From Trypanosoma brucei (taxonomy: Eukaryota): a stretch of 64,000 nt of DNA. Positions 8,658 through 49,857 of the stretch are shown here, in pieces. The notes under the pieces were generated by a model that saw only the letters and a list, made by a program, of their open reading frames with translations, was not told the DNA's origin and searched no databases. A program made the position numbers and the translations under genes. Position 1 is the first letter of the stretch. Each line of letters opens with the position of its first letter. The DNA lies in the NCBI GenBank assembly GCA_000002445.1, contig CH464491.1:768001-832000 (forward strand), written 5' to 3'.

Positions 8658-10724
8658 TCAGCGCCCGCCAGCGAGGGAGTGAAGGTGCAACATCTCCGCT
8701 AAGTGTGCAGTAGATTCTCGCCCCTCCACAACAACTGCGTCCCGTCTAACGAAATCCCGGAGCGGGGGTACAAGAAATTCTTCTGTGTCAGTTACGCAGT
8801 CATTCCAACGAACAACGGGAATAAGTGGCGTAAGTCCAGCCGTGATGGGACCCTCGTGAGCGAACACCACAATAAAGGAATGTTCTGCTTGTTGTTGTTG
8901 CTGCTGATGTTGCTGCTGCTGTTGTTGTTGCTCTGGAGCAGCAGTAAACCGAGGAATGTAACATGACAGGAGTACAGGCCGCACATCACGTGTGTACTTC
9001 CCAAGCCCGCGCTCAACAGTCAAGGTGTAGAGCAGTCTCTCAACTAATACACCGAGACGAAATGGACAACCGAAAGTCTCCAATGCGGTTGATGTGTTCG
9101 TCGGGTCGGCAGGTTGTGTATAATGAATCCCTTTGGTGCTTTGCATCATTCCGGGTTGCATTAGTGCACTTGTAGCCGTTGCCACCGACTCATGTAGAGC
9201 CTGAGCCTCTTTTACAGCTGCTCCAAATGCTGGAGAATTGGGGTCAGCGTCTATTATGTCGTGGGCGCGCCAGAATTGTTCACGGCGGAACTCCCTCAAC
9301 TTTTCCTTCATGGTAGTTTCATCCTTCGACGTGGTGTATATGGTGCTTGGTGGCGCGGCCGATAGCAATGCTGTGAACAGTGTGCAGATATCAAACGTAG
9401 ATACTTCAACACTGTAACCTGTTGTGCGCGCCACGCATTGAATTTGTATCGGGTTTTTAATAAAACTACCCCGCGTGCGCAGCAGTTGCTTGAGTTCGTT
9501 ACGTACTAGTTGGCATGAGTCTTTTTTCACATCGTCTGGAAGCTCCCGCCATGGTTGTTGGGCAACCTTGGCTGACACACCGCAGCGAGCCAACAGCTGG
9601 CGGAGGGTTCCCAAACCCTCTTCCACGCGATGCAGGGAAAGTAGACCAGCAACAACGGGATGGAGCCACATGGCGTTCCACAATGAAAGGTGTCGCAGTA
9701 AGAAAAGTTGATCTTCTTCTAAACTAGAGAGCTGCATAGTGTTGCTAGATGAGACCTGTTTGTGGTACCGGTTGACTGTATCATTGGTTAGGTCGTCAAG
9801 AAGCCCGTGACGGATGCCTTTGCGCAGCTTCACTTCATTGTGGATTCGACGCATGTCTGTAATATACGTGCCATAATCCACCAGACGACGCTTAAATAAG
9901 TCACATACACCCAATGCAGCATGCCACAACACAGGTTCCTTAACACGATTCAACAGTATCGCCAAGTCGTACATCTCTAGCGCACAGCTCTTCCCAGCAC
10001 ACTCCGCAGCATAATACAGTCGTTCCAAATGTGCGGGAACATCTTCTCTCAACCAGTCGAGCCGCTCCTGACTTTGCGAGGGAGTCATCTCATCATCATC
10101 ACCATACTCGTCGTCATTCTCATCATCGTCGTCGTCGTCGCTACTGCTTGCCTCATCGCTAACTTCATCTTCCTCAACATCCCCTTCAGCATGCTGACGG
10201 ACTCTTCTACGGTGCATTTGGCGTCTACGGCGGCGTCGGCGACGTGCCTTCTCTTGCTCACGCTGAGTACGAAAGAAATCATCTACTTCCTCGTGAATTT
10301 TTTCTTGTCCCCATATCACCAATCGATCGCTGTCGCATGCACGTAAATTTTCCAATAGAAACGGTCGATATGAATCAAGAACCAAAACAATGTGCCGCTG
10401 CAAGTCGAAGAAAGAGAATAACGCCACTGAAGCACCAAGTCCAATGAGAAGAAATAATTCATCTACGGGTGCTGCATCGCCAACCTGCAGCTCTGCATCC
10501 TGAGCGAGGCTCGTGCGCTGAATAATATCCCGAGCCTCGGCATACTCGGCGATAGGATGGAGGTTGAAGGGAATGAAGCACGCCTTTAGCAGGGACGTGA
10601 GGGTGAGGGAGGCGGCAGCCGCATCAGCGTGATACGCGACGAAGAGATGGATAGGTTTACGGGTGATGTGGTAAAAACGATTGATACGATCCCACGGTGA
10701 AAGTGTATCAGCCATCAACCGCAC
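8658..10724 (-). CDS. CDC45: cell division cycle protein 45 (CDC45) homologue, replicative CMG helicase subunit
   Basis: 688-aa ORF. The N-terminal DHH-like region 'LLIGLGASVALFSFFDLQRHIVLVLDSYRPF' parallels human CDC45 'ILINCGANVDLLDIL...IFFVCDTHRPV'. A long acidic insert (SDEASSSDDDDDDENDDEYGDDDE) sits at the equivalent position of the CDC45 acidic loop. 'VLWHAALGVCD' is similar to 'MLWWAIVGLTD'. The protein also carries a C-terminal Q13/H tract. Confidence 0.7.
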   Translation of the reverse strand: MRLMADTLSPWDRINRFYHITRKPIHLFVAYHADAAAASLTLTSLLKACFIPFNLHPIAEYAEARDIIQRTSLAQDAELQVGDAAPVDELFLLIGLGASVALFSFFDLQRHIVLVLDSYRPFLLENLRACDSDRLVIWGQEKIHEEVDDFFRTQREQEKARRRRRRRRQMHRRRVRQHAEGDVEEDEVSDEASSSDDDDDDENDDEYGDDDEMTPSQSQERLDWLREDVPAHLERLYYAAECAGKSCALEMYDLAILLNRVKEPVLWHAALGVCDLFKRRLVDYGTYITDMRRIHNEVKLRKGIRHGLLDDLTNDTVNRYHKQVSSSNTMQLSSLEEDQLFLLRHLSLWNAMWLHPVVAGLLSLHRVEEGLGTLRQLLARCGVSAKVAQQPWRELPDDVKKDSCQLVRNELKQLLRTRGSFIKNPIQIQCVARTTGYSVEVSTFDICTLFTALLSAAPPSTIYTTSKDETTMKEKLREFRREQFWRAHDIIDADPNSPAFGAAVKEAQALHESVATATSALMQPGMMQSTKGIHYTQPADPTNTSTALETFGCPFRLGVLVERLLYTLTVERGLGKYTRDVRPVLLSCYIPRFTAAPEQQQQQQQHQQQQQQAEHSFIVVFAHEGPITAGLTPLIPVVRWNDCVTDTEEFLVPPLRDFVRRDAVVVEGRESTAHLAEMLHLHSLAGGR
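8889..8933 (-). repeat. CAG/CAA triplet repeat (reads TGC/TGT on + strand) encoding the polyQ/H tract of the CDC45 homologue
   Basis: 'gttgttgttgctgctgatgttgctgctgctgttgttgttgct' translates on the minus strand to QQQQQQQHQQQQQQ. Confidence 0.85.
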
Positions 10725-11213
10725 GTGCGTCTGGGTACTGTAAATAAGTACAGTCTAATTAACTATATATAAATATATATACCTTGAGGGTGGGGAGAAA
10801 GGGTGTATGTCACACCTTACTTCTACCCTCTTTTGAAATTGTGTATATATTTTTTGCTTCTATGCTCTCTAATGATAAGGTTTACACGACTTTCAGCTCC
10901 ACCTTACTTATACCTATTGTCAAGGGACACTGTGAAACACTCGATAACAGTAAAAGTGAATAAAATAGTCCGAGAAGACACAGTAGCAAGGAATGATGGC
11001 AGAAAAAAAAAGTTTTAGTAATCACTTATACTCCGCGTCCGCATACGCTAAATTGTGGTTGCTAAGAATGTTGGTGAAGAAGAAAGGGACTTCTCCATCC
11101 TTACACGTAAAGTCACCTTAGCACGTAATCACGAGGTCAACAAAAGCTAACCGCACCTCTTCCTCTCATGCAAATGTAACTGCCTCGATTAGACACGCTA
11201 ACCACCCCTCACT

Positions 11214-12500
11214 TCAACGGCAGTAGAGGTACCCCTGACATATTGTTTCCTGTACGAGCATAGGTGTCACCATTAGAACAACTTCGTCAAGTTTGGCCCG
11301 ACCCGAATCAAGAATCCCCCTCATAATGGGGTCGTCAAAAATGGAAGTATTGATTTCATGGGAGTCAATTCCCCTCCTTTGTTGCTCCTTCAGAACCGCG
11401 AGCACAATCTCGTGTCGTCGAAGATGCCACCGGCGCATCACCTGAAACATCGTAGCAGGTACAGTGTTCTTTAATAAGTAATCCCCATCTATACGTGCCA
11501 TACGAAAGGCTTCCTGCATAGAGGGATCTTCCATAACCAATGAATCACATGCAAGAGATCCGGATGAAAGAACGCATTGTGCCGCTTCCATCCTCCTTAT
11601 CCACAAAATGACCTCTTCCGTGTCCCAGTGTAATGGGTCCTCACGTGGCAGCTCGGAATCGCCGTGTGGTTCGCCCAACTGGCAGAATACGACCTGTGCG
11701 AGTGGCTCAGGAGGGTGCAATGTCCCGCGACGCTGGGGAACGTGCCCTTCATTTACAGTGTTGGCCGGAACGCCTCCCATTTGCTGCTGCTGCTGTTGAT
11801 CAGAGGAGTATATGTTAACCCCGGTGTCGTTTTCTTGTTCGCATCCACTCCTACGCATGAACTGCGGAAGTGGCACATTGTCTGCATCTTCATCAGCATC
11901 ATCATTGTCCTCAGCCTCTTCCCCGTCTGCCACTATTTCCGGATCTTCACTTTGGAGACCACAGGCGTTGTCGCAGTCATCTACCTCACTCAAACCTAGC
12001 TCCTTGGCTACATATTCATCGTAGCTGGAATAATTTCTCTCAAGCACCTTCCTTCGCTCCCGCAGCTCCCGCATATGAAGTTCCTCCGCGCCGAGGGGAT
12101 GTTGTGACGCCATTCCACAATCCTCAGAGCCGGAAGAGGCAGATGATCCGCTTTCATTCATTTTCTTTACGGACAGGCGACCAATCGTCGTAAAGCGAGA
12201 CCACTCGGGGCCAAAATGAGCCATTCGCACTTCCTCACTGGCTGCAGCGTTAGCGAACGCATCCACATTTATATTACTCCACGCTCCATAGAAACCATCA
12301 ACAGGATCATCAGATGCTGATTTCTCACCAAAGGGATCATCAGGTGATAAAGAACGGTGCTTCACAGCGCGTTGACTATGGCAAAGTGCGCAATCCCGTG
12401 AAGCAACGCTTTGGATATTATAAACGCCATTGCCCCTGTTGAGAGCCGTAAAATTGCGGTCACAACGGAACAGTCGCAAAGTCGCCCACATTCCCCTCAT
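11214..12500 (-). CDS. conserved hypothetical protein, acidic (D/E-rich) with short polyQ tract
   Basis: 428-aa minus-strand ORF. It has an acidic block 'EDPEIVADGEEAEDNDDADEDADN', a Q7 tract and non-repetitive flanks. I recognise no domain. Confidence 0.5.
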   Translation of the reverse strand: MRGMWATLRLFRCDRNFTALNRGNGVYNIQSVASRDCALCHSQRAVKHRSLSPDDPFGEKSASDDPVDGFYGAWSNINVDAFANAAASEEVRMAHFGPEWSRFTTIGRLSVKKMNESGSSASSGSEDCGMASQHPLGAEELHMRELRERRKVLERNYSSYDEYVAKELGLSEVDDCDNACGLQSEDPEIVADGEEAEDNDDADEDADNVPLPQFMRRSGCEQENDTGVNIYSSDQQQQQQMGGVPANTVNEGHVPQRRGTLHPPEPLAQVVFCQLGEPHGDSELPREDPLHWDTEEVILWIRRMEAAQCVLSSGSLACDSLVMEDPSMQEAFRMARIDGDYLLKNTVPATMFQVMRRWHLRRHEIVLAVLKEQQRRGIDSHEINTSIFDDPIMRGILDSGRAKLDEVVLMVTPMLVQETICQGYLYCR

Positions 12501-14053: not shown

Positions 14054-15241
14054 TTACAACTTAGTGGTCCTTCCCCCTGGCGTTCCATTTTCCTGCGATG
14101 CGTACCCATTAGGGTGAGTGCGCTGAAACTTCCAGGATGTTTCCATGATGGCCTCGAGAGTGTCGTATTTTGGTTTCCAGCCCAGCACCTCCCGTGCCTT
14201 ATCGCTGGCAGCCACAAGATACGCCGGGTCCCCCTCCCGACGGCCACACTCACGCACCGGAATCGGGTGCCCAGTAGTCTTGCGCGCCACTTCTATAACC
14301 TCACGCACGGAGTACCCCCGCGAAGTGCCAAGGTTAAACACAGAGAAGTACTTGGACTTGTCATTCGGTCCCAGTTTCTCCACGTAATCAAGAGCTAATA
14401 TGTGAGCCGACGCAAGATCACACACGTGAACGTAGTCCCGTACACACGTGCCGTCGGGTGTAGGATAGTCTGTACCAAATATGGGCATTCTCTTGTCAGT
14501 TGACGCATCCTCGTGAATTGTTAATCTTTGATCCGGTGCGATGTCGCTCATTACCCTACCCAAGATTATAGGGATTAGATGCGTGGAGCCTTGGTAGTGC
14601 TCACCGATATCTCCATCCTCGTGCGCTCCACAGGCATTGAAGTAACGGAGGCAAATGCCTTTAATCCCGTATGCTTCCGCGCAATCCCTTATCATCCTCT
14701 CCGCAATAAGTTTCGACTCGCCATATGGACTTTCTGGGCTCTTTTTGGCGTTAATATCGATGGGTTCTGCGTTTGTGGACACGGAGCCCTTTGTTGGGTT
14801 GCCAAAAATGGCGGCACTACTGGAGAAGATGATTTTGTCGCACTTGTGTAACAACATCGCTTGAAGCAACCTTAGAATACCAACCACATTGTTGTCATAA
14901 TACTTTAGTGGATCTCTCACACTCTCACCAACGGCAAGGAAAGCACACATGTGGACAACAGCATCGATAGGACCATGGCGAGTGAAAACGCCGTTAAGGA
15001 AGTCTTCGTTACGCACGTCTCCCACCTCCAGTGCGGCGTATCGATCCGCCCACGGCGGCTTCGGTCCATCACTTTGTTGCAACTTCCGCGCTACATTTTC
15101 CCTGGTTTCCACATGGTCGCTTTTCCCATGCGTCCCCACAAGCGAGTCAACGATGACAACACTGTGGTTCGTGTCGCGCAAAAGAGCCCGCACGAAGTGG
15201 CTTCCAATGTAACCTGCGCCTCCACAAACCAAAACGCGCAT
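14054..15241 (-). CDS. GALE: UDP-glucose 4'-epimerase (SDR superfamily), glycosomal (C-terminal PTS1 -TKL)
   Basis: 395-aa ORF beginning 'MRVLVCGGAGYIGSHFVRALL' (Rossmann GxxGxxG) with the catalytic YxxxK in 'SPYGESKLIAE'. The full length matches my recollection of the T. brucei GalE sequence (the crystallised enzyme). It ends in the peroxisomal/glycosomal targeting tripeptide TKL. Confidence 0.95.
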   Translation of the reverse strand: MRVLVCGGAGYIGSHFVRALLRDTNHSVVIVDSLVGTHGKSDHVETRENVARKLQQSDGPKPPWADRYAALEVGDVRNEDFLNGVFTRHGPIDAVVHMCAFLAVGESVRDPLKYYDNNVVGILRLLQAMLLHKCDKIIFSSSAAIFGNPTKGSVSTNAEPIDINAKKSPESPYGESKLIAERMIRDCAEAYGIKGICLRYFNACGAHEDGDIGEHYQGSTHLIPIILGRVMSDIAPDQRLTIHEDASTDKRMPIFGTDYPTPDGTCVRDYVHVCDLASAHILALDYVEKLGPNDKSKYFSVFNLGTSRGYSVREVIEVARKTTGHPIPVRECGRREGDPAYLVAASDKAREVLGWKPKYDTLEAIMETSWKFQRTHPNGYASQENGTPGGRTTKL

Positions 15242-15814: not shown

Positions 15815-18331
15815 TCACTTTTTCCCACCTACGGAAGGTATGACAAAGTAGTAACTGTTTGGGTGGCGTGCAACAGCCACTTCCCTCGCCGGTAAGGGCC
15901 CTGCAAACGCGCCAGAAGCACGAGGGTCAGCAGCATTACCACCCATGCCATCGATGTTTAGTTGTATCAGCGAACTGGGATCACCGTGACAACGCAACAC
16001 CGCGTTTTTTATATCTCTGTTTATCACACTACTATTTTTCACTCGGGTAAATACCGCATGGACACTGTTGTGCGCATTCACTAGGGTAGCTTCCGTGCAG
16101 AGAACGGGTATATGACCAACAAAACGGTCAGCAAGAATCTCCGCAACACCGCTGAAGTACGTCATACCATTCCCCGTTGACTTGCCAAAGTATGCTACTG
16201 CTGATGGGGTAATATCACTCTCATCTGTTGATCCCGAGGTAGTACGAACTCTAATCATAGTATCATTGGCAAATATATGATATTTCGTACTGCAGAAACG
16301 TAGAAGCACGGCAGAGTTTGCTACATCACCCGACGAATGCGTGTGCCATACATCGCCAAGGACGGTTGTTGGTGGCGTCCTCACAAAATTACCATCGTTT
16401 GTGACAGCGTACACCGCGTTGTGATCCTCTTCTGCGAAAGTATCAGAACATAGGAGGATCCTGAGTTGTTTCCATGGCCACTCAGAATGCGATGGTCCCC
16501 AATCAGAACGTGCTGCAGTAACACAGGGCGCAAACTCAGCAATAAATGGTTGTACATCACTGTCAGCGTCAACAACATGGATAATAGGGTTCACTTTCCG
16601 TTGAAGTGCCGAGGTGTTATCCGTCAAAAACTTGAACAACGTCATTACTGTCGAAGCGGTGGTGGTTTGGGGAAGTTTCACTCCCCTTTCCTTCAAATGC
16701 GGTAGCACACGCTGCTCGTAGTCCTCTCGCGCCCTCTGCCACAGTTCACACATCTCACGATGGCCGCTCTTCCAGCCATTCATTTGATGTTTCCTACAGC
16801 AGTACATTTCCACGCGGCATCTACCACAACGTAACAGTTTGTCACGGCGCCGTTGGCACCATGAACAAACCTCATTGTGTGTTGGTGGGGGCACAGGAGA
16901 CACATCTCGTGGTAGTGTGTAGTTGCCATCCTTGCATGATATGATGTTCCTCGAGAGGAACTGAAAGGCCGCTGCGGCAGCAGCCCAATCGTGCTCGTTA
17001 CGTGGTGAATATTCCAAAACCTCCACATGTGGGGAGGCAATTGGCGTGTCTTTCACTACAGACCCTGTTGGCGTCCGATAAACAACTTTTGGGAAAGAGT
17101 AGCTACTGCAGGATCCTTTGCATAGCGGCTCACATGGAAACGTCTCAACTGCTTGCTCCTGCATCGACAAAAAAAATAAGAAACGGTCAATATCGTCGAA
17201 GGCAATACCTTCAAGTGGCGTTAGTTGGGCGAAAACTTCACCATCTTCATGCATCATGTCGTCGTAAACGGTATCAAAAGATTTTTCATCACACAGCCGG
17301 TCTTGAAGGTAAAGCACTTCACCTCCATCTTGCATTAGGTGAAGCTCCGCTCCTATTGGTTGCGGGGCAAGTGGGCCGGGGTCTAAATTTTCCTCAGATA
17401 CCTCTTGTTTCTCCACAAAAGGCTTCTGAATGAGAAGGACGTGCCAACGGCCATCTCCTGTCACCGCAGAGGAAGTGTCAGATGATGAAATGGTTGGGAG
17501 GGTAAAGGAGGTTACGTGACCCACTCGCTTCTTCAAATTTTCTATCGCCATGCGACGTTCTACCTCTAGAGCAGGGAATGATCCGTCCGCACCGGTCCCG
17601 TCACTCGTCATTGCACCTGCTGCTGACACGATGGAGTCACTATTATCAGGTTCACGAAACGATGCTGTATACAGTAAAGGGTGTACTTGCTGAAATGACC
17701 TTAGTACCGCGTCGTTTCCCACCTGTGATGGTGCCGATACGTCTACCGCAGCAGGTTCATGTTGCACAGCCCATGCAACGACCTCACCTGCCATCCCAGG
17801 TAATCTCCTACCTGAAATGACCTCTGTTATGTGATGTCGCAAAACTGTAAAGGACTGCAGGGCAAGCGGTGCTAACACATGTTCGAGGCGTGTCTTGAAT
17901 AGAGAAAACGCACGGTCGGAAAAGAGTCCCAGTTTCTCATGAGTATCACCAACAGTCACACACCTCAAGTCAAACGACGCGGGATGAAGCGATGCAGGAA
18001 CGAAACGAAAGATATCCGCAACCAGTTCCGCACCCTTCGTTTCCCACAGTACCTCCTGGCAACTGTTTTTCATGTTGTAGAGTAACAAACGCCACTGAGA
18101 GCTCTCGGTAGAGTCAATGAAAATATCCAACTCTTCTTCATTATCTGAGGTTCCGAACAGCAGTTGGAAAACTGGTGCATACAACACATTTCGCCTCTTG
18201 TCCCTGCACCACTGCCGAGGCAATACACTCAGAAGAAACCACCGTCGGTAGCGCTCATTCAACACCTTTCCAAGTGCCTCGGCTTCAGTGCACGCTCTTC
18301 CGTCCCGCAGGAACTTCTCCACAACAGCCAT
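15815..18331 (-). CDS. MYND-type zinc-finger domain protein (large, otherwise hypothetical)
   Basis: 838-aa ORF containing 'CSWCQRRRDKLLRCGRCRVEMYCCRKHQMNGWKSGHREMC'. This is the C-x2-C...C-x2-C...C-x3-H-x...C spacing of zf-MYND. The rest is non-repetitive. Confidence 0.65.
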   Translation of the reverse strand: MAVVEKFLRDGRACTEAEALGKVLNERYRRWFLLSVLPRQWCRDKRRNVLYAPVFQLLFGTSDNEEELDIFIDSTESSQWRLLLYNMKNSCQEVLWETKGAELVADIFRFVPASLHPASFDLRCVTVGDTHEKLGLFSDRAFSLFKTRLEHVLAPLALQSFTVLRHHITEVISGRRLPGMAGEVVAWAVQHEPAAVDVSAPSQVGNDAVLRSFQQVHPLLYTASFREPDNSDSIVSAAGAMTSDGTGADGSFPALEVERRMAIENLKKRVGHVTSFTLPTISSSDTSSAVTGDGRWHVLLIQKPFVEKQEVSEENLDPGPLAPQPIGAELHLMQDGGEVLYLQDRLCDEKSFDTVYDDMMHEDGEVFAQLTPLEGIAFDDIDRFLFFLSMQEQAVETFPCEPLCKGSCSSYSFPKVVYRTPTGSVVKDTPIASPHVEVLEYSPRNEHDWAAAAAAFQFLSRNIISCKDGNYTLPRDVSPVPPPTHNEVCSWCQRRRDKLLRCGRCRVEMYCCRKHQMNGWKSGHREMCELWQRAREDYEQRVLPHLKERGVKLPQTTTASTVMTLFKFLTDNTSALQRKVNPIIHVVDADSDVQPFIAEFAPCVTAARSDWGPSHSEWPWKQLRILLCSDTFAEEDHNAVYAVTNDGNFVRTPPTTVLGDVWHTHSSGDVANSAVLLRFCSTKYHIFANDTMIRVRTTSGSTDESDITPSAVAYFGKSTGNGMTYFSGVAEILADRFVGHIPVLCTEATLVNAHNSVHAVFTRVKNSSVINRDIKNAVLRCHGDPSSLIQLNIDGMGGNAADPRASGAFAGPLPAREVAVARHPNSYYFVIPSVGGKK

Positions 18332-18966
18332 TCGATATCAGATCCAAGTTTCCTCGTTCCTTCAGAATGCAAAAAGAAATAAAAAGAACGTTAAGGTATT
18401 TTCTATCAGCTTCTCGCATGTGGTGTCACACCTATGCGAAGCGCTGCCAGTAAACAACAAAAAAGTAAAAAAAGCGAAGTGGTGGAAACGAAATTGAGAA
18501 CACTATATCAATTTGCGCTGTGCACCGCCGCTCCACCTGCCGAGCCCAAAACAAAACGACATTCGTGGATAATCATGTAATTATGATGGGGGTCACAAGA
18601 AAAAATTTAGAGGTCGAATCATTAAAAAAGAACTAAAAAAAGGTAAAGTTTTGTATGTAAATAAAAAAGGAACAGTGGTATCATTAGAGCTAAAAAGACA
18701 GGGATGATATTGCCAAAACAATTTACCTCCAAGATGTTACCATTGGGAGACTAATAATGATGTGTACAAACAATACACTCCTCTTTATGCTGCTTCACAG
18801 CACAAGAGCTTTTCTACGAAACTAAGTACAGTACAGCAAAATTAAAATTATACTTGGAAAAAAAGAACACCATACAGGTACTAACTATTCAAAAGGGAAA
18901 ACCGATAACAGAACACAAATGTAGTTACCACCATAAAGAGAAAAAGGAATTGAGTAAAACACGAAG

Positions 18967-20388
18967 TCACATTACAGTACATCGAGGGCACATACCATAC
19001 AGTCTGAACCTCCTGTTCGTTGCTTTACCTGGTTCCAAAAGTGGTGCTTCTGTGTCTCCAGGATCCGCTGAAGGAGATGATTCGTGCATCCTCCGTCGCT
19101 CAGTTTTCAAGGAGTTCAGAGCCTCATCTCTTTCTTTGAGTGCCCAAATATTCTGTCGACGAATTTCTTCCAATGACTCTACAGTCTCCTTCAAAGACGT
19201 TGAGAGTGTCACATTCTCATCTTCTGCAGCTTTCAGTGCGGCAAGTAATTTCTCCTTCTCACACTCGGATGCCGTAATAATTTTCTTATCATCTTCTGCC
19301 ACCTTCCTCAGTTCTTCCCTCTCATCTTCTGCAGCTTTCAATGCGGCAACCAATTTCTCCTTCTCACACTCGGATGCCGTAATAATTTTCTTATCATCTT
19401 CTGCCACCTTCCTCAGTTCTTCCCTCTCATCTTCTGCAGCTTTCAGTGCAGCAACCAATTTCTCCTTCTCACACTCGGACGCCGTAATAATTTTCTTATC
19501 ATCTTCTGCCACCTTCCTCAGTTCTTCTCTCTCATCTTCTGCAGCTTTCAGTGCAGCAACCAATTTCTCCTTCTCACACTCAGATGCCGTAATAATTTTC
19601 TTATCATCTTCTGCCACCTTCCTCAGTTCTTCCCTCTCATCTTCTGCAGCTTTCAGTGCGGCAACCAATTTCTCCTTCTCACACTCGGATGCCGTAATAA
19701 TTTTCTTATCATCTTCTGCCACCTTCCTCAGTTCTTCTCTCTCATCTTCTGCAGCTTTCAGTGCAGCAACCAATTTCTCCTTCTCACACTCAGATGCCGT
19801 AATAATTTTCTTATCATCTTCTGCCACCTTCCTCAGTTCTTCTCTCTCATCTTCTGCAGCTTTCAATGCGGCAAGTAGACTTTCTTTTTCGTCTGTGAAT
19901 TCGTTAACCAGTCGAGCAAGTTGTTCTTCGGCCACTTTTCCTGTGACCGGGTTATAATCAGCACTACGGGGATCATTATCGCCAGCACTAGCGATATTTT
20001 TTTTGTAAACCGAATGATCCCCGGTTTCTTGCGTCAGGTTGCCTTCTCCTTCCTTACCAGTTCCCTTCTGCAGCGCATTCAGGGTCTCCAGTGTGCTGGC
20101 AAGCTCATCCCTTGTTTTTTGCAAATCACACTGCAGTTGTCCTTGGTCAAAGTTTGATTTGCGTAAAAGCTCGTCATAAGCACCCTCCAGCTCTTTGATA
20201 CGTTCGTCACGCATCTCCAACTCAAGGCGAAGTTCGGCGACCAAGCGACTGCCCCCGCGGGCACTGGTTACAGTACTACAATCCGTGGAGTCGTTTGTAG
20301 TATGTGAACCGTCCCGGCTGCTATAGAAAGAAGTAACCTCTGTAGCGGGGCGTGAGGCACTGGGTGACCTTTCATCAAAGGGAAACAT
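18967..20388 (-). CDS. repetitive coiled-coil protein with about 7 tandem 35-aa charged repeats (EKLVAALKAAEDEREELRKVAEDDKKIITASECEK)
   Basis: 473-aa ORF. The central 735 bp is a near-perfect 105-bp tandem array kept in frame. The flanks are unique: an N-terminal S/T-rich region and C-terminal 'LEEIRRQNIWALKERDEALNSLKTERRRMHESS'. Confidence 0.65.
   Translation of the reverse strand: MFPFDERSPSASRPATEVTSFYSSRDGSHTTNDSTDCSTVTSARGGSRLVAELRLELEMRDERIKELEGAYDELLRKSNFDQGQLQCDLQKTRDELASTLETLNALQKGTGKEGEGNLTQETGDHSVYKKNIASAGDNDPRSADYNPVTGKVAEEQLARLVNEFTDEKESLLAALKAAEDEREELRKVAEDDKKIITASECEKEKLVAALKAAEDEREELRKVAEDDKKIITASECEKEKLVAALKAAEDEREELRKVAEDDKKIITASECEKEKLVAALKAAEDEREELRKVAEDDKKIITASECEKEKLVAALKAAEDEREELRKVAEDDKKIITASECEKEKLVAALKAAEDEREELRKVAEDDKKIITASECEKEKLLAALKAAEDENVTLSTSLKETVESLEEIRRQNIWALKERDEALNSLKTERRRMHESSPSADPGDTEAPLLEPGKATNRRFRLYGMCPRCTVM
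19160..19895 (-). repeat. 105-bp tandem repeat, about 7 copies, more than 95% identical, within the CDS
   Basis: 'acactc[ag]ga[tc]gccgtaataattttcttatcatcttctgccaccttcctcagttcttc' recurs at 19261, 19366, 19471, 19576, 19681 and 19786, a period of exactly 105. Copies differ only by a few substitutions. Confidence 0.9.
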
Positions 20389-20706
20389 ATTGGCTTGTAC
20401 AACTTAACGGTAATATCAACTATAAACATATAGCGATGATGTCCGCCCACGCGGACAGAGACAGGCGGTTAAATACCGGAGTGAAGAAGTAGACGATGCA
20501 ATCTTCCAGGCGTAATTGCTGCTGCACTGACTAAAAATAGAAACAGGGTCAACGCTATTTTTTTTTTTTGGGGGGGGGAGGACGGAAAATTGTGAGTGAA
20601 AATGCAGACTTGATCCAGAAATAAAACAACTTGTAAAGGGTCAGCGGAACTCCAAACCCACCTAAACATGCGCACGCACATATAGAAGGAAGGGACAAGA
20701 CGCACC

Positions 20707-21777
20707 TCACTTACTTAGGTTCCGCACAAACAAATTGCTCATCCGCCGGTTCTCCTTTGCCTCCGCTGTTAAGGGGTCAGGGATATCCAGTAATGAAAGT
20801 ATATGTGCCATGTTCGTGTTAAGTTCCCTCTCAAGTGCAGAAACCATGGCCGTTGTACGGTAAACTCGCGACTGCGTTCCGCTAATACTTGTCGCTCTGG
20901 AGCCGCCCCGACCATCACCAGAAGCGGACGAAAATTGGCTGAACACATGCGGTGCAGCGATTGAAGCGCCGCCTACACATGACTCACTCCGCTCTCTCTT
21001 GACAGCCGCTACTGCATTGGGGCGAAGTGAACCTTTTGATCCCTTCTCCCCGGGAACATCACCACACACTGCACATGTCGTTTCCTTCGTCAGCATGTTC
21101 TTCGCCAGATCCAGGCAAGAGGCACAAGCGTAGAAGCGGCAACACTCCAGCATCACTTCATCAAAGCTCTCCAGCTCACATAGCACACAAATCCCTTTCT
21201 TTGGTGTGGGCAATGTCAATCCTTCCACTGACGTGCGGTTGAGTAACCAAGGGAGCACCGGAAAGGCCTTGCCGGACACTGCGGTAACGCGCTTCAATTT
21301 GTGTGGATCCCGCACTTCCACGCGCTTGCCTGTACCAACGGGGCCGCTGGAACTCACAGTACCAGTCACAGTTGTTGCTTCATGTTCGTGCAACATCCCC
21401 TCTACGTGCTGAAGCCGTTCTTCGCGGGCTTTTTTTTCGTCTTGTGCTGCGTCCACTACGCCATCCAAGTAGTGACGCCGAGACACGTTAACGATAACCC
21501 TATCGTAAGAATGCAGTACATCATTCGATTGTAACGGCACGTAAACGTCTGCAACAGTGCTGGGTGTCTGCCCCTCCTGACTATCATTCCCTGCTGAAAT
21601 AACACGTTGAATCTCTAGTTTGTACTTGGTGAGATTTATCTGATGTTGCTTTACGATATCTTGAGTAAGAGCGGTTACAGTCACCACATCACCACTGAAC
21701 CCGAAACTGTGATACCTCCCCGAAGCAGCCGGATGCGAGCCGAGCAGTCGGTACTGAACGACCCCCTCCGTTTCCAT
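20707..21777 (-). CDS. DWNN-domain protein with C-terminal RING-like zinc finger (RBBP6/Mpe1-like; candidate mRNA 3'-end processing / E3-type factor)
   Basis: The N-terminus from Met at 21777, 'METEGVVQYRLLGSHPAASGRYHSFGFSGDVVTVTALTQDIVKQ...YVPLQSNDVLHSYDRVIVNVSR', fits the ubiquitin-like DWNN fold pattern (V-x-Y-K/R-F...G..I). The C-terminal 'CVLCELESFDEVMLECCRFYACASCL...CAVCG' is a Cys-rich RING-like module. I placed the start at the internal Met because DWNN domains begin at residue 1-2. The upstream 59 codons of the maximal ORF look like UTR. Confidence 0.55.
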   Translation of the reverse strand: METEGVVQYRLLGSHPAASGRYHSFGFSGDVVTVTALTQDIVKQHQINLTKYKLEIQRVISAGNDSQEGQTPSTVADVYVPLQSNDVLHSYDRVIVNVSRRHYLDGVVDAAQDEKKAREERLQHVEGMLHEHEATTVTGTVSSSGPVGTGKRVEVRDPHKLKRVTAVSGKAFPVLPWLLNRTSVEGLTLPTPKKGICVLCELESFDEVMLECCRFYACASCLDLAKNMLTKETTCAVCGDVPGEKGSKGSLRPNAVAAVKRERSESCVGGASIAAPHVFSQFSSASGDGRGGSRATSISGTQSRVYRTTAMVSALERELNTNMAHILSLLDIPDPLTAEAKENRRMSNLFVRNLSK

Positions 21778-22317
21778 GGGGAGGCAACCTTGACGTGCAG
21801 AGAGTGGCCAACCCCTTTCGTGCTCAGCGTATGAAAAGAAAAGGGGGGAAAAAAAAGAAAACACATAATGAGCCGGGAGAAGCAACACACACAGCATCTG
21901 TTTGAGAGGGAAAGCAAAGAAGTTCCCTCCCACGTATATTTTATTGTTGGACACAGTACGCGGGAGAACGGAGTTTCCTTAGACGAACATACACACGAGC
22001 CTCAGCCCACTTTTTTCTCTGTTGCTTCTCTGGCGCCTCTCTACGCAGATATCTAAGCAAAACATTCTGCAAACAAAAAATACATATATATATATATATA
22101 TAACGAGGTGATAGAAAGATCGTCCCAATGGTACAAAAACAACCAAACACATTGTACATTCAATATGGTGATCCTGCTCCTAAAAGAAATGAGGAGGGGG
22201 CAAAAGGTATTTGGTTTTGCTTTGATCACACGAAAGGACTTGCTGGAGGCAGCTTTATCCACACACAACCGCACAGACTTTCCTCTTGTGTTCTCTGTCC
22301 CAAATCTCACCCACTCA

Positions 22318-31696: not shown

Positions 31697-33214
31697 TAAT
31701 AAAATATATCACAAAGCGGCACCAGGCGTTACGCGGCGTTACAGTTCCTGACCTTGTGTCTTCCAGGTAGGGGCGACTAACCTCCGCGATGTTCCTTCTT
31801 TTCTTTCTTTTCTTTTTCTTTTTTTTTTTACTTACCCCCTTTTCTCTTGCTTCGTATTCGTTTAAAGATGTGGCCGTATGGAGGAAGTTAGAGTTACCGC
31901 AGTGCCGCACGGTTTCGCCTCCCCACCTCCCTCCCTTCAGACACGCACACACACTTCCGTTGCTTTCACCTCTCGTATCCGCAGTAAAGGGGAAAAAGCA
32001 ACAAAGAAGTTACTGTACTACCTTACAAAAATAAATAAATAATGTGTTATAAGTAGTAGTGTGGAAATAAAACAAAACAAATATTGACAGAGAATTTACT
32101 GCAATCAGCGGTAGGGAACACTGGATAAGCATAAACCCATAGGCACCAGTAAACAGAGGATGAGATAAGGAAGGGAAAAGCGCACAATTACAAAATACAC
32201 AAGAAGACATCGTGTGTAATCATCACGCGTGTCAACATGTCGTGCAGCCAAGGGGAGTTCCCCTGTTTTTTTTCTTAAAAAAACAATTTGAAAAGTGGGT
32301 GATTAAATAGTTTGACTTTTTTTTTCCTTGCTAATTTCTCATAGTGTTGGCCTGCTCTCAAATATAATGTTTCTTTCATGTAAAAGATGGGAAGGGAAGA
32401 GAGTAAACGAAGGTATTTTTTTTAAAAAAAAAAGTACTGAGGTAAAGTAAGAGGGTAAAAATAAAGAAACGGTGAGCGAAGGGGGAAAAAAGGGAAAAAG
32501 AATTTATGGCAAGTGCGGTAGTCAGTACAATAAATAATAATAATAATAAATAAACTACTGCACTACATCAAAGAAGTTGAGAGTCTACATACCGAACAAG
32601 TAAAAAAAAAAAAGACAACAACACCAAACGCGCATTTTTATGAAATTCTTCTTTTTTTTTTTACCATTCGTATTATTACAATATTTCAAATAAAAATAAA
32701 AATAATAGTAATAATATGAGTGGTAAAAGTGATAAGGGTACTAATGATAATTTTAAAAAACGGGAAGAGAAAAAGTAAGAAGAATAATAATAAACAAAAC
32801 ATGTGGACTGCGGTAAAGGAAAATACATAACAACACACAAATACCTTCGAATACATAGGTAGAAAGTGTAGAAATAGAAGCAAAAAGAAATAAATAAAAT
32901 GTGGGGGGGGAAAGAGAGAAAAAAAAAAGAAGAAAAGAAAGAAAAAAAACGGAGAGCACAATCAAATGAAGGCAGTTAATACTCAAACACCGTTTTCAGA
33001 TTATGTGTTTGTGTTCACTCCCGAAGCTCTTCCTTCAAATTCCCCCCCTCCCCCCCCCGCATTTACTCTATAATTTTCTTTTTCTTTTCTTATTCCTTCT
33101 TTACCGTCACTATTCCTCAGACTTCTACCGTTTTTTTTTCTCATCTGTTTTTTTTTTTAAAATAATTCTGATTTGCACTTTTCATTTTCTTCCTCAACCA
33201 ATAGACACACAGAA

Positions 33215-33260
<46 letters not shown>

Positions 33261-35613
33261 TAATTTATATTAATTTATATTTATATAGACAGACAGACAA
33301 ATATATGTATAAATACATATATTGTATTTCTTCATCTAATATAAATCCTCACAGGGTCGGGTATTGCATTGAAACACAAAGAAACCAAACCTGAACTTCG
33401 TCATAAAGGAGTAAAGCAAAACAATAAACAATAAGAATAATAATCTGAAGAAGAAGGAGGAGGAGAAGGGGGACAGAATGCGCATAAATAAGCATGCGGA
33501 CGCGTATTTGAACATTAATAAATGAAAAAGAAAAAGAGAAAAAACAAGAAACACAAATAACAGTTCATTGTGTTAAAGAGCGATTGACAACGTTCAAACA
33601 AACAAAAAAAACAAGAAGCTGAAAAGAAAGAAAACGAATATTCTGATAATGAAACAGTATCGTTTATCGATTCGTTTATTCATTTATTCCCGATGTTTCC
33701 ATCTTAAATACCCAAATACAAACACATTCTGCCCTGTTGTATTGCCTTGCTTGCTCTAATCACATATTTTCCTCTTTTTTTTTTTTCAAAAAAAAAAAAA
33801 GAAATTCTTTTCGTTACTTTCGTAACACTTCCCTAAAGTAAAGGTACCAAAACATAATCACTTTTATACTCATTAAATGAGTGGAGAGTCGTTTATTTCT
33901 CATTCCCTTCACTTCTTTCTGTTTTATTTCTTTCACACACACTTTGTTGATTGTTTAATTTATTGATTTTTTTTCATTAGCTAGTTTGGTACTCAAAGAG
34001 AAAACAAAAACAAAAACAAAAAAGAGAGTTGTCCAACATATTTTGGACAAAAAGATTTTTTTTTCTTTCGAATTAACCAAACTTAATGAAATATTTAAAA
34101 CACAAAATGAAAAGGAAAAGAATTCATCAAAACAAAAAAAAGTACAAAAAAACAAAAAAAGAAAAAAAGAAAAACACCACATCAGCAGTGCCAGCCAAAC
34201 ACGCGCATGAAATGTTGTGGAAAAAGGCAATGAGCATTGGTGAATATGAGGTGATCGGAAAAATAAAATAAAACAACGGTTACAAAAAAAAAAAGGGGGG
34301 GTGGAAAAAAAAAAAAAAAGAAAACATGTCACAACTAACTTATCACCACTTATTCATAAGGTTTACTTATACAAATACTATTTAACGGGGGGAAAGTAAA
34401 AAAAAACTCTATGTCATTTATTCATTCTTTAACTCACCTATTTACTTCATTTACTTTTTCTTCATACTTTACTTCACCGGTCACAGCCGTAACAAAAAAA
34501 AAAAAGAACAAACAAACAAACAAACAAATGGCAAGAACCACTTAAATAAACGCTCCTTCTCAAGCAAACACATACGCAGAAGCTGCCCGCATTCCTCTGC
34601 AATTCAACACGGAGCCTTCACAATAATAATAATAATAATAATAACAGAACGAGGAAAAACAAAAAAAAAAGCAACGAAAAGAAGAAAAGAAGAATAGAAA
34701 AAAAAAAAAGAGCATCGCTCACTGACTCTATGATAATAATAACAATAATGAAAATAAAGTAGAGAAGAAATTTGCCACATGGAATGGATGAAGCAGCGGA
34801 TCTTCATAACGCTGCCACTATTTATTTACTTCTCCCAACTCGGGCATTATTTTTCTTTTTTTTTGTCGTTGTTCTGTTTGTCCACCGCTGCGGTGAGTTG
34901 TAAGGGTAAAAATAAGGAAAGACTGGATGGGCGAGGGATTAAATAAAAATGGAAAGAAAAAAAAGTTAAAAGGCCGCACACAAATAATAAAAGCCTGAAG
35001 AGAGAACGAACTAAAAAAAAAGAGAGAGAAATGCAAACACACACACCTACATTTCTATTCGGTAAGCATCAACACTCTTGAAGTTACTCGCACGAGTTTT
35101 TGAATACATGTTATTTTTCCCTTCCCCCCTTTTCTCCGTCCCAACTATTTTACTGCACCAAAACACCGCGGTAAGGAGCTGCGGCACATCGCATAAGCAC
35201 CTGGAAGCGGCAGAGGTGTAACAATAAAGTAATAATCATAATAATAATAATAACAGTGGTGATAATTATTTTCATCCGCTTCCCACTTCACCTGTCACCT
35301 CTATTTCACTGGTGACGGTACAGTCGGCGGCTTAGAAATAAAACTGTCATCTCGTTCAGTTCACGCAATGCAACACAAACAAGCTTTCTTTATTTTTTTA
35401 AATTCATTTCACCCACTCCCTCCCCCATGCGTATGTACAAATATATATATATATATATATAAGAAGAAAGAGATACCCAAAGGCGATGATGAAAAAAAGG
35501 CGACAAACATGTGCGCGTATGCACCAATCGTGAGAGAAATGTACCATGAAACAAATACTCACATTGGTACATCAGACTCATTGAGGGGTGAAGGCGGCAC
35601 AATATGTGGTCAC
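31697..35613 (-). other. 3.9-kb ORF-free, low-complexity region (probable long 3'UTR of the WD40 gene plus intergenic spacer)
   Basis: Neither strand has an ORF with non-degenerate composition. The region is rich in A/T runs, (CA)n, (AT)n, (ATA)n and homopolymer tracts. Confidence 0.6.
33216..33260. repeat. compound (CA)12(AT)10 microsatellite
   Basis: 'cacacacacacacacacacacacac' is followed by 'atatatatatatatatatat' within the 3.9-kb ORF-free region. Confidence 0.95.
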
Positions 35614-47264: not shown

Positions 47265-47296
<32 letters not shown>

Positions 47297-47447
47297 CGCA
47301 TTTACACACAGTGAACGTGCTCATGAAACACTCACATAAACAAACACCAAAAATAACAGTTTAGTTTTCTTCCCTTTTAGTTGCTGTTACTGTTGCATGT
47401 TAATCTAATTATTCTTTCTTTTTTCTTTCTTCTTGTCGAGGCACGAT

Positions 47448-49856: not shown

Positions 49857-49857
<1 letters not shown>

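What the first reader, a model, noticed from the sequence alone, without database searches (positions are those of the whole stretch)
18967..20388. Near-perfect 105-bp x about 7 in-frame tandem repeat encoding a 35-aa charged helical unit
Period-105 copies at 19261, 19366, 19471, 19576, 19681 and 19786 differ by only a handful of mostly synonymous substitutions. That indicates recent expansion or concerted evolution. The unit EKLVAALKAAEDEREELRKVAEDDKKIITASECEK is predicted to be alpha-helical. Its single Cys per repeat could give regularly spaced disulfide or palmitoylation sites. Trypanosome proteins of this architecture are typically cytoskeleton- or flagellum-associated and are immunodominant repeat antigens. 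Copy number is likely collapsed or variable in short-read assemblies.
Basis: seen in the sequence. Interest (0 to 1): 0.55.

Follow-up and report, generated by a model that had tools for sequence, protein, structure and literature searches.

The report
Repeat-lengthened, probably farnesyl-anchored trypanosome rod protein

Summary
A period-105 array (19216-19884, minus strand) encodes six full 35-aa units plus a 13-aa partial unit inside a 473-aa ORF. Units 2-6 are identical in protein, and their five variable DNA sites are all synonymous.

The protein is identical to T. b. brucei TREU927 XP_828358.1. By gene order it is Tb927.11.2750 (POMP12), which several published proteomes detect. T. equiperdum has the same copy number but a different mix of variants, so the array is not an assembly artefact and is being homogenised by gene conversion.

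New here:
- **Lipid anchor signal.** The protein ends in CPRCTVM, a CaaX box with X = Met. The CaaX cysteine is invariant in all eight full-length kinetoplastid homologues.
- **Orthology.** The 273-aa T. vivax orthologue, syntenic on both sides, has no repeats. At the same position T. rangeli and T. conorhini carry the 14-aa CRA (R27-2) repeats.

So the 35-aa array is a brucei-lineage expansion in a conserved family. Published fractionation places the protein in ER or mitochondrial outer membrane, not in flagellum or cytoskeleton.

My best reading is a farnesyl-anchored helical rod lengthened by the repeats. Farnesylation and function remain untested. This is an ordinary, already annotated gene with a modest new angle.

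The parts
18967..20388 (-). Complete ORF of 473 aa plus stop. Identical to T. b. brucei TREU927 XP_828358.1/Q386N5, and assigned to Tb927.11.2750 (POMP12). Predicted 53 kDa, pI 4.8.
   Evidence: The gene identity follows from the order GalE (Tb927.11.2730), MYND gene, this gene; from PMC11867338; and from the T. equiperdum name 'Proteasome maturation protein 12'.
20260..20388 (-). N-terminal Ser/Thr-rich segment (aa 1-43), predicted disordered, with an invariant Ser8-Pro9. Probably a phosphorylation region.
   Evidence: pLDDT is about 40 and there is no secondary structure. S8 and P9 are invariant in the alignments. PMC12222847 lists POMP12 among potential CK1.2 substrates.
20059..20259 (-). 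Conserved family helix (aa 44-110) carrying the signature LxLExExRDERIxELExxYEELxRKSxFxxGQL. This is the only part conserved across kinetoplastids apart from the CaaX box.
   Evidence: The exhaustive HMMER search matches aa 5-134. Alignments A1 and A2 give invariant L53, E56, D61, R63, E66, L67, E68, R76 and G83. pLDDT is 85-91.
19885..20058 (-). Disordered linker (aa 111-146) followed by the start of the long helix (aa 147-168) that leads into the array.
   Evidence: AlphaFold2 secondary structure and pLDDT.
19216..19884 (-). The 105-bp tandem array: six full 35-aa units (five heptads each) plus a 13-aa partial seventh unit. Predicted all-helical. One Cys per unit.
19078..19215 (-). Unique helical segment after the array (aa 392-437), continuing the same long helix.
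   Evidence: Helix 307-437 with pLDDT up to 93.
18991..19077 (-). Flexible, proline-containing C-terminal tail (aa 438-466) with basic residues (NRRFRLY) next to the anchor.
   Evidence: pLDDT below 50. Sequence.
18970..18990 (-). CPRCTVM: the CaaX box C470-T-V-M, a predicted farnesylation site, plus Cys467 three residues upstream as a candidate palmitoylation 'second signal'.
   Evidence: Translation. C470 is invariant in 8 of 8 full-length homologues. T. brucei farnesyltransferase prefers X = Met or Gln (PMC3206815).
15815..18331 (-). Downstream neighbour, an 838-aa MYND zinc-finger protein (inferred Tb927.11.2740). Used here as a synteny marker, not as part of the feature.
   Evidence: Pfam zf-MYND, E = 5e-8. 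The same neighbour follows the homologue in T. vivax and in a metagenomic kinetoplastid.
20707..21954 (-). Upstream neighbour of 415 aa (inferred Tb927.11.2760). Used here as a synteny marker.
   Evidence: tblastn finds 44% identity to the gene just upstream of T. rangeli R27-2.

Best explanation
The array is the central part of Tb927.11.2750 (POMP12). This gene is the T. brucei member of a kinetoplastid-wide family of small, acidic helical proteins.

Family members share three parts:
- a Ser/Thr-rich N-terminus that is probably phosphorylated;
- one conserved helix motif;
- a C-terminal CaaX box.

Proposed mechanism (inferred, not shown):
1. The T. brucei farnesyltransferase farnesylates Cys470 of CTVM.
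2. The standard CaaX steps of proteolysis and methylation follow at the ER.
3. Cys467 may add a palmitate.
4. The protein is then held on the cytosolic face of ER or mitochondrial outer membranes, with a long helical rod projecting away from the membrane.

The 35-aa unit is exactly five heptads. Adding or removing units therefore lengthens or shortens the rod by about 5 nm per unit, about 31 nm for the six units, without breaking helical register. The conserved N-terminal motif is thereby placed further from the membrane.

The array arose in the brucei lineage. Unequal exchange or gene conversion keeps its units nearly identical, and purifying selection acts on the peptide. In the T. cruzi clade the same gene expanded a different unit of two heptads, the 14-aa CRA repeat.

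Shown here: the repeat anatomy, gene identity, synteny, conservation of the CaaX cysteine, predicted helicity and the signature of gene conversion.

Inferred: farnesylation, membrane orientation, the dimeric coiled-coil state and the spacer role.
For: - **Repeat anatomy and selection:**
- **Identity:** the protein is identical to TREU927 XP_828358.1. The ORF at 14054-15241 is TbGalE (PDB 1GY8, 917 bits), which is Tb927.11.2730 (PMC7909634). That puts the repeat gene at Tb927.11.2750, which PMC11867338 calls POMP12.
- **It is translated:** it is quantified in proteomes in PMC11867338, PMC8255026 and PMC10361982, and in a phosphoproteome cited by PMC12222847.
- **Membrane fraction:** hyperLOPIT in bloodstream forms gives ER with localisation probability 0.999924.
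- **No transmembrane segment:** the maximum 19-residue hydropathy is 0.5, so a lipid anchor is the only visible membrane determinant.
- **CaaX box:** the protein ends in CPRCTVM. PMC3206815 reports that TbPFT readily farnesylates CaaX boxes with X = Met or Gln, and that T. brucei appears to lack geranylgeranyltransferase I. The same CTVM ends a T. brucei VAMP in that paper's CaaX list.
- **Conservation of the anchor:** all eight full-length homologues end in C-a-a-M or C-a-a-A with an aliphatic a2, and the cysteine is invariant. The African trypanosome sequences have a second Cys at -3. Four of the other five have a Lys-rich or Lys/Arg stretch just before the cysteine, and P0007 has two scattered Arg instead. 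These parallel the Ras-type second signals.
- **Orthology:** synteny is two-sided in T. vivax, upstream in T. rangeli and T. conorhini, and a MYND gene lies downstream in a metagenomic kinetoplastid.
- **Link to CRA:** the T. rangeli orthologue passes the Pfam CRA_rpt threshold (24.8 bits against a cut-off of 21.4). The end of the T. conorhini contig reads AEKQRAAEAVSAME repeats.
- **Helical rod:** AlphaFold2 predicts helices at 44-110 and 147-437.
- **Gene conversion:** T. equiperdum has the same copy number and a different variant mosaic, with E-to-V in adjacent units 5 and 6. Divergence is 14/669 in the repeats against 7/753 outside them. The edge units keep Leu at unit position 4, where all internal units have Val.
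Against: - Farnesylation has not been demonstrated. A Thr at a1 and a Pro-Arg just before the cysteine have not been tested as TbPFT substrates.
- The two published localisations disagree. The protein is listed in a mitochondrial outer-membrane proteome, yet hyperLOPIT classed it as ER even though that dataset has a separate mitochondrial outer-membrane class.
- T. cruzi CRA is described as cytoplasmic (PMC3890492).
- I could not see the C-terminus of any T. cruzi-clade orthologue, because the contigs end inside the arrays. The CaaX box is therefore unverified there.
- Heptad periodicity within the unit is only modest. The 3.5-residue harmonic has a shuffle p of 0.059, and only 4 of 10 core positions are strongly hydrophobic. 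The rod could be a single charged helix rather than a dimeric coiled coil.
- The AlphaFold2 model is a single-sequence prediction with pTM 0.24.
- No phenotype or binding partner is known, so the spacer role is a structural inference only.
Confidence: 0.6

Rival explanations
1. One reading: a cytoskeleton- or flagellum-associated repetitive protein, like the trypanosome antigens FRA/GM6, MARP or I2. The repeats would bind microtubules, and the regularly spaced cysteines would form disulfides or palmitoylation sites.
For: Many trypanosomatid tandem-repeat proteins are cytoskeletal (general knowledge). Pfam GAS, a 'growth-arrest specific microtubule binding' model, gives a near-threshold match of 32.0 bits against a cut-off of 32.3.
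Against: - hyperLOPIT assigns the protein to ER at 0.9999, although flagellum and microtubule classes exist in the same dataset.
- The GAS match is below threshold and is generic coiled-coil similarity.
- The repeats are absent from the T. vivax orthologue and from other homologues, so they cannot carry the family's core function.
- The cytosol is reducing, and the repeat cysteine is specific to the brucei lineage.
Confidence: 0.07
2. A genuine mitochondrial outer-membrane protein that acts in protein import or mitochondrial morphology, as the POMP name and PMC11867338 imply. The repeats would be a cytosolic domain of that machinery.
For: The gene is listed as POMP12 (the name comes from Niemann et al. 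2013, which I cite from memory and could not read). Levels are reported to rise under conditions interpreted as mitochondrial reprogramming.
Against: - POMP means only 'present in the outer mitochondrial membrane proteome'.
- In the papers I could read, no functional experiment on POMP12 is reported.
- hyperLOPIT has a dedicated mitochondrial outer-membrane class, yet it put this protein in the ER.
- There is no transmembrane segment, beta-barrel or tail anchor.

This view is compatible with the lipid-anchor explanation if the farnesylated protein partitions between ER and the outer membrane.
Confidence: 0.15
3. A soluble cytosolic repeat protein. The array would have no structural role and would be a neutral, slippage-driven expansion, or would act only as a B-cell decoy epitope as proposed for T. 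cruzi repeat antigens. The terminal CTVM would not be used.
For: CRA in T. cruzi is described as cytoplasmic and highly antigenic. The repeats are lineage-specific and are dispensable in T. vivax.
Against: - The CaaX cysteine is invariant in 8 of 8 full-length homologues spanning African trypanosomes and unidentified, more divergent kinetoplastid sequences. That is not expected for an unused motif.
- All within-array differences are synonymous (P = 0.0004 to 0.006), so the peptide is under selection.
- The protein fractionates with membranes.
Confidence: 0.12
4. An assembly artefact: the array is collapsed or expanded in the assembly and the true copy number differs.
For: Near-identical 105-bp units are hard for short reads. 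The orthologous T. rangeli and T. conorhini contigs do break inside their arrays.
Against: Two independent assemblies, TREU927 (the window) and T. equiperdum GCA_003543875.1, give the same 473-aa length with distinct internal variants. The array is only 669 bp and carries unit-specific variants.
Confidence: 0.03

Closest known systems
T. cruzi cytoplasmic repetitive antigen (CRA = Ag30 = JL8 = TCR27 = 'R27-2 protein', TcCLB.506811.160; Pfam CRA_rpt PF07046)
   Same: The T. rangeli gene annotated R27-2, which passes the CRA_rpt threshold, and its T. conorhini counterpart occupy the same chromosomal position as the window gene. Both share its N-terminal domain; for T. rangeli this is 47.5% identity over 101 aa, E = 1e-17. 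Both have a central, charged, Ala/Glu/Lys-rich helical array whose unit is a multiple of seven residues.
   Different: The repeat unit is unrelated in length (35 aa against 14 aa), and the T. brucei protein does not match CRA_rpt. CRA is reported as about 225 kDa against 53 kDa here. CRA is an established diagnostic antigen, and I found no serology for the T. brucei protein. T. cruzi itself and the C-terminus of any CRA-clade protein were not examined here.
T. brucei farnesylated CaaX proteins, such as KinesinCaaX (Tb927.10.12440, CVIM) and the CTVM-ending VAMP Tb09.211.4610
   Same: A C-terminal CaaX box with X = Met, the preferred TbPFT substrate class. [quoted passage not shown] There is a coiled-coil region upstream.
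   Different: There is no motor or SNARE domain. Farnesylation is shown for KinesinCaaX and not for this protein. The published CaaX list contains no proteins annotated as hypothetical, so this gene is not in it.
Trypanosomatid tandem-repeat antigens of the cytoskeleton or flagellum (FRA/GM6, MARP, T. cruzi MAP)
   Same: Near-identical in-frame tandem units homogenised by concerted evolution. Hydrophilic and charged.
   Different: Those proteins associate with microtubules or the flagellum. This one fractionates with ER and outer-membrane fractions and carries a lipid-anchor signal.
Farnesylated coiled-coil proteins of other eukaryotes (B-type lamins, Spindly, CENP-E/F); a functional analogy only
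   Same: The architecture: a long helical rod with a C-terminal CaaX box that tethers it to a membrane or a partner (general knowledge).
   Different: No sequence relationship was detected. The N-terminal profile finds nothing among PDB sequences and no Pfam family passes threshold. The compartment also differs.

Membership tests
Kinetoplastid CRA/R27-2/POMP12 orthologue group | Conserved chromosomal position, between the orthologue of Tb927.11.2760 and the MYND zinc-finger gene | tested here: met
   T. vivax is syntenic on both sides. T. rangeli and T. conorhini are syntenic on the upstream side. A MYND gene lies downstream in a metagenomic kinetoplastid.
Kinetoplastid CRA/R27-2/POMP12 orthologue group | N-terminal Ser/Thr-rich region followed by the helix motif LxLExExRDERIxELExxYEEL | tested here: met
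   Exhaustive HMMER hits to aa 5-134, down to E = 5.6e-22. Invariant columns in alignments A1 and A2.
Kinetoplastid CRA/R27-2/POMP12 orthologue group | 14-aa CRA repeat (Pfam PF07046) | tested here: not met
   The window protein has no CRA_rpt match at E <= 0.1. The T. rangeli orthologue scores 24.8 bits against a cut-off of 21.4. The repeat type defines only the T. cruzi-clade subgroup, not the orthologue group.
CaaX-farnesylated proteins (T. brucei PFT substrates) | C-terminal Cys-aliphatic-aliphatic-X with X = Met or Gln | tested here: met
   The protein ends in CTVM. The specificity comes from PMC3206815. The a1 residue is Thr, which is not strictly aliphatic, but the same CTVM ends a T. 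brucei VAMP in that paper's CaaX list.
CaaX-farnesylated proteins (T. brucei PFT substrates) | Conservation of the CaaX cysteine, plus a second membrane signal, in orthologues | tested here: met
   C470 is invariant in 8 of 8 full-length homologues. There is an upstream Cys at -3 in T. brucei and T. vivax, and four of the other five have Lys/Arg residues just before the cysteine.
CaaX-farnesylated proteins (T. brucei PFT substrates) | Covalent farnesyl group on the protein | not testable with these tools
   This needs metabolic labelling or mass spectrometry of the C-terminal peptide.
Two-stranded coiled coil | Heptad periodicity with hydrophobic a and d positions, and a long uninterrupted helix | tested here: inconclusive
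   A helix is predicted over aa 147-437, and the unit is exactly 5 x 7 residues. However, the 3.5-residue harmonic has a shuffle p of 0.059, and only 4 of 10 core positions are Leu, Ile or Val. A single charged alpha-helix is not excluded.
Pfam GAS (PF13851, growth-arrest-specific microtubule binding) | Score at or above the gathering threshold | tested here: not met
   32.0 bits against a cut-off of 32.3, spread over 5 repeat-driven stretches.
Mitochondrial outer-membrane proteome (POMP) | Co-fractionation with the mitochondrial outer membrane | tested here: inconclusive
   The gene is named POMP12 in the literature. hyperLOPIT in bloodstream forms assigns it to ER, although that dataset has a mitochondrial outer-membrane class. 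The procyclic-form sheet was not available in the stored file.
Cytoskeletal or flagellar repeat antigens | Association with flagellum or microtubule fractions | tested here: not met
   The hyperLOPIT allocation is ER, not 'flagellum' or 'microtubule structures'. This is literature data, not my own experiment.

The most novel reading that the evidence does not exclude
The CRA/POMP12 family would be a kinetoplastid-wide family of farnesyl-anchored rod proteins on ER and mitochondrial outer membranes. Rod length would have been extended independently, in heptad multiples, in different lineages: 35 aa in T. brucei and 14 aa in the T. cruzi clade. If so, the classic 'cytoplasmic' Chagas diagnostic antigen CRA is really a lipid-anchored membrane tether or spacer, and the repeats would set a physical distance, for example at organelle contacts or for a partner bound by the conserved N-terminal motif. 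The literature I could search does not make this link: no paper combines CRA with farnesylation.
Probability: 0.35. Interest if true: 0.5.

Novelty: already known. Interest (0 to 1): 0.3.

Why it matters
The repeat itself is an ordinary feature of an annotated reference-genome gene. Three things add some value.

- **A testable handle on an uncharacterised protein.** A conserved CaaX anchor predicts that farnesyltransferase inhibitors, already pursued as anti-trypanosomal drugs, should displace the protein from membranes.
- **A link to a widely used Chagas antigen.** The gene sits where relatives of T. cruzi carry CRA. That suggests CRA's cell biology may have been misdescribed as simply cytoplasmic. 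It also shows the same rod region expanding different heptad-multiple units in separate lineages.
- **A practical warning.** C-terminal tagging would destroy the anchor signal, so localisation studies of this family need N-terminal tags.

Tried and rejected
- **Word-index homology searches.** Searches with the whole protein, with a version collapsed to one repeat, and with the N-terminal alignment returned only the T. brucei cluster or a single Neobodo sequence. Only the exhaustive HMMER search found the family.
- **Exact-sequence contig look-up** for the window protein found nothing on record. The T. equiperdum copy was used instead.
- **Pfam.** No family passes threshold for the T. brucei protein. 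The GAS, DUF7234 and other matches are coiled-coil noise. PF27605 is precomputed for the Neobodo homologue but did not appear when that homologue was scanned against the local Pfam copy.
- **PDB profile search** with the N-terminal alignment gave nothing meaningful.
- **Fold search** was not run. The model is essentially one long helix with pTM 0.24, so any matches would be uninformative.
- **TrypTag supplements** hold no entry for Tb927.11.2750.
- **The published T. brucei CaaX list** contains no proteins annotated as hypothetical, so the gene's absence from it says nothing.
- **Niemann et al. 2013** (the POMP paper) is not held. The POMP12 assignment therefore rests on PMC11867338, on gene order and on the T. 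equiperdum product name.
- **Serology.** A literature search for T. brucei tandem-repeat serology of this gene was unproductive.
- **The plus-strand ORF 18854..19957** (367 aa) was rejected as the mirror image of the repeat. Every long ORF in the window other than short ones overlapping minus-strand genes is on the minus strand.
- **P0004, P0005, P0006, P0012 and P0016** hit only the repeat region. They have unrelated termini and were treated as generic coiled-coil matches.
Full report
**1. The observation**

Tandem Repeats Finder reports a single strong array at 19215-19874: period 105, 6.3 copies, 96% matches, no indels, score 1229. It is the only long-period tandem repeat in the 64-kb window. 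It lies inside the minus-strand ORF 18967..20388, which encodes 473 aa.

In the reading frame there are six complete 35-aa units (aa 169-378) and a 13-aa partial seventh (aa 379-391). Together they span window 19216-19884. Units 2-6 are identical in protein (EKLVAALKAAEDEREELRKVAEDDKKIITASECEK). They differ at five DNA sites, all synonymous transitions. The probability of this is 0.0004 by Nei-Gojobori site counts, or 0.006 if only transitions are considered.

Both edge copies carry Leu at unit position 4, where all internal copies have Val. This fits the common pattern in which edge copies of a tandem array are homogenised less than internal ones. The plus-strand ORF 18854..19957 is the mirror image of the repeat. 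Every long ORF in the window, other than short ones overlapping minus-strand genes, is on the minus strand.

**2. Identity of the gene**

The protein is identical to T. b. brucei TREU927 XP_828358.1/EAN79246.1/Q386N5. It is 99% identical to T. b. equiperdum RHW68084.1.

The ORF at 14054-15241 is T. brucei UDP-galactose 4-epimerase (PDB 1GY8, 917 bits). PMC7909634 lists that enzyme as Tb927.11.2730. The gene order is GalE, then a MYND zinc-finger gene (15815-18331), then the repeat gene. That places the repeat gene at Tb927.11.2750.

PMC11867338 calls Tb927.11.2750 POMP12. The T. equiperdum product name 'Proteasome maturation protein 12' is evidently a wrong expansion of POMP12, where POMP stands for 'present in the outer mitochondrial membrane proteome'. 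That reading of the name is my inference.

The protein is expressed. It is quantified in three proteomic studies, and PMC12222847 lists it among potential CK1.2 substrates.

**3. Not an artefact, and evolving in concert**

T. equiperdum was assembled independently. It has the same length and copy number but a different mosaic of the same synonymous variants. It also carries an E-to-V replacement in the adjacent units 5 and 6. Divergence between the two strains is 14/669 in the array against 7/753 in the rest of the ORF. This is the signature of unequal exchange or gene conversion within a stable-sized array.

**4.

The protein ends in CPRCTVM. That is a CaaX box with X = Met and a second Cys three residues upstream.

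PMC3206815 reports that T. brucei farnesyltransferase readily modifies CaaX boxes with X = Met or Gln. It also reports that T. brucei appears to lack geranylgeranyltransferase I. It notes the same 'Cys three residues upstream' arrangement in the farnesylated KinesinCaaX, where palmitoylation was suspected. The same CTVM terminates a T. brucei VAMP in that paper's CaaX list.

The protein has no hydrophobic segment (maximum 19-residue hydropathy 0.5) and no signal-peptide-like N-terminus. Even so, hyperLOPIT in bloodstream forms assigns it to the endoplasmic reticulum with localisation probability 0.999924, in a dataset that also has mitochondrial outer-membrane, flagellum and microtubule classes. 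A lipid anchor is the simplest way to reconcile these facts. It is general knowledge that the enzymes for the later CaaX processing steps reside in the ER.

**5. The family**

Word-index searches found only T. brucei. The exhaustive HMMER search found homologues of aa 5-134. They are:
- T. vivax (273 aa);
- T. rangeli, annotated 'R27-2 protein, partial';
- T. conorhini;
- Neobodo designis;
- several unnamed sequences from sequencing-run assemblies (Logan) and metagenomes.

All seven complete homologues end in a CaaX box: CAVM, CLVM, CVIM, CSIM, CSIM, CVIM and CLIA. In the eight-sequence full-length alignment the CaaX cysteine is invariant, alongside M1, S8, P9 and the core of the helix motif LxLExExRDERIxELExxYEEL. 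T. brucei and T. vivax have a Cys at -3. Four of the other five have Lys/Arg residues immediately before the cysteine, and P0007 has two scattered Arg instead. This mirrors the two kinds of 'second signal' known from Ras proteins (general knowledge).

No Pfam family passes threshold for the T. brucei protein or for its N-terminal domain, and no PDB sequence matches that domain.

**6. Orthology with CRA**

In T. vivax the 273-aa gene is flanked exactly as in the window. Upstream lie genes of 270 and 655 aa. Downstream lie the MYND gene, GalE and, further on, CDC45 (window ORFs).

In T. rangeli, orthologues of window ORFs 26505 (CFAP91), 23800, 22318 and 20707 lie in the same order upstream of the R27-2 gene. 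The N-terminus of that gene is 47.5% identical to the window protein over 101 aa, E = 1e-17. T. conorhini shows the same arrangement. A metagenomic kinetoplastid homologue is followed directly by a MYND gene.

The T. rangeli protein passes the Pfam CRA_rpt threshold (24.8 bits against 21.4). The end of the T. conorhini contig, after a frameshift, reads AEKQRAAEAVSAME repeats. R27-2 is the genome annotation of the T. cruzi antigen known as Ag30, TCR27, CRA or JL8. It is described as a 225-kDa 'cytoplasmic' protein built of 14-aa repeats, and it is used in Chagas serology.

So the T. brucei gene is the positional orthologue of the CRA-repeat gene of the T. cruzi clade. T. vivax has no array, T. 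brucei has 35-aa units, and the T. cruzi clade has 14-aa units. The T. brucei protein does not match CRA_rpt. The arrays are therefore independent expansions in the same central helical region, and both units are multiples of seven residues.

[quoted passage not shown] The family found here is wider than that.

**7. Structure**

Single-sequence AlphaFold2 (mean pLDDT 66.6, pTM 0.24) gives the following:
- a disordered region at aa 1-43;
- a confident helix at aa 44-110;
- a disordered linker at aa 111-146;
- one long helix at aa 147-437, with a low-confidence break at aa 295-306 (inside the fourth repeat unit, whose sequence is identical to its neighbours) that I take to be a modelling fold-back;
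- a disordered tail at aa 438-473.

The unit is exactly five heptads. The 3.5-residue harmonic is the second strongest, but it is only marginally above shuffles (p = 0.059). The strongest harmonic is 11.67 residues, which reflects an internal sub-repeat (KAAEDEREELR / KVAEDDKKIIT). The core positions are only partly hydrophobic. A helical rod is therefore well supported, and a dimeric coiled coil is plausible but unproven. At about 0.148 nm per residue (a textbook value), the six units add about 31 nm.

**8. Interpretation and verdict**

My best explanation, at confidence 0.6, is a farnesyl-anchored and possibly also palmitoylated helical rod on ER or mitochondrial outer membranes. The conserved, probably phosphorylated N-terminal module would be held away from the membrane. 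The brucei-specific array would act as a register-preserving length extension, homogenised by gene conversion and held under purifying selection.

The cytoskeletal or flagellar reading is not supported. The disulfide idea is unlikely for a protein facing the cytosol, and the repeat cysteines are lineage-specific.

The feature is real but belongs to an already annotated and named gene. The modest novelty lies in the conserved CaaX anchor and the link to CRA, neither of which I found in the searchable literature.

Three limits remain. Farnesylation has not been tested. The C-termini of the T. cruzi-clade orthologues were not seen. T. cruzi itself was not examined directly.

Noticed in passing
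window 18970-18990 (-): The ORF ends in CPRCTVM, a CaaX farnesylation box with a second Cys at -3. The CaaX cysteine is invariant in all 8 full-length homologues.
   Followed up: yes
window 18854-19957 (+): A 367-aa Ser/Phe-rich ORF lies antisense to the repeat. It is the mirror image of the array on the non-coding strand of a minus-strand gene cluster, so it is very probably not a gene.
   Followed up: partly
L001 (T. b. equiperdum CM010682.1), gene 10001-11422: The product name 'Proteasome maturation protein 12' appears to be a wrong expansion of the T. brucei name POMP12 ('present in the outer mitochondrial membrane proteome'). This annotation error could spread to other records.
   Followed up: partly
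P0027 (T. vivax Y486 CCC52798.1, 471 aa) versus P0003 / L005 10001-10822: The Y486 gene model carries a 198-aa Cys/Pro-rich N-terminal extension that is absent from the 273-aa model of another T. vivax assembly and from all homologues. It is probably a mis-called start codon, and it makes the protein look the same size as the T. brucei one.
   Followed up: partly
L002 10001-10841 (T. rangeli) and L003 10001-10673 (T. conorhini): Both contigs end inside the CRA-like 14-aa array. The 137-aa T. conorhini gene model is cut short by a frameshift, after which another frame reads AEKQRAAEAVSAME repeats. These short-read assemblies break at this gene, and its C-terminus is missing.
   Followed up: partly
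L002 3665-5092, L003 4500-5945 and L003 8772-9131: Compared with the window, the T. rangeli and T. conorhini syntenic blocks contain an extra PH_31-domain gene. T. conorhini also has a small zf-CDGSH gene just upstream of the CRA-like gene. No counterpart was seen between 20389 and 23800 in the window.
   Followed up: no
window 19216-19884 (-), within each 35-aa unit: Each unit contains an internal sub-repeat of about 11 residues (KAAEDEREELR / KVAEDDKKIIT). The strongest hydropathy harmonic is 11.67 residues, not 3.5. The unit may have been built from a shorter ancestral motif.
   Followed up: partly
window 20560-20581 (+): A T12 G10 homopolymer pair lies in the intergenic region about 170-190 nt upstream of the ATG. 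On the coding strand it reads as a C-rich polypyrimidine tract followed by A12, which could be a trans-splicing signal.
   Followed up: no
window 1-2000, 32001-36000 and 46001-50000: These are AT-rich stretches (GC about 0.30-0.38, against about 0.47 elsewhere), including a (TAA)40 microsatellite at 49788-49907. They have no long ORFs. They may be long intergenic or degenerate-element regions.
   Followed up: no
P0012 (2317 aa) and P0016 (1742 aa), hits: Two long proteins of unknown origin match the repeat region only. They also end in a CaaX-like CLVM, and P0016 has an NTPase-like N-terminus. They are probably unrelated coiled-coil proteins, but the shared CaaX ending is curious.
   Followed up: no
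Literature: PMC11867338 versus PMC10361982: [quoted passage not shown] In the papers I could read, no functional experiment on POMP12 is reported. hyperLOPIT classifies the protein as ER in bloodstream forms, although that dataset has a separate mitochondrial outer-membrane class.
   Followed up: partly
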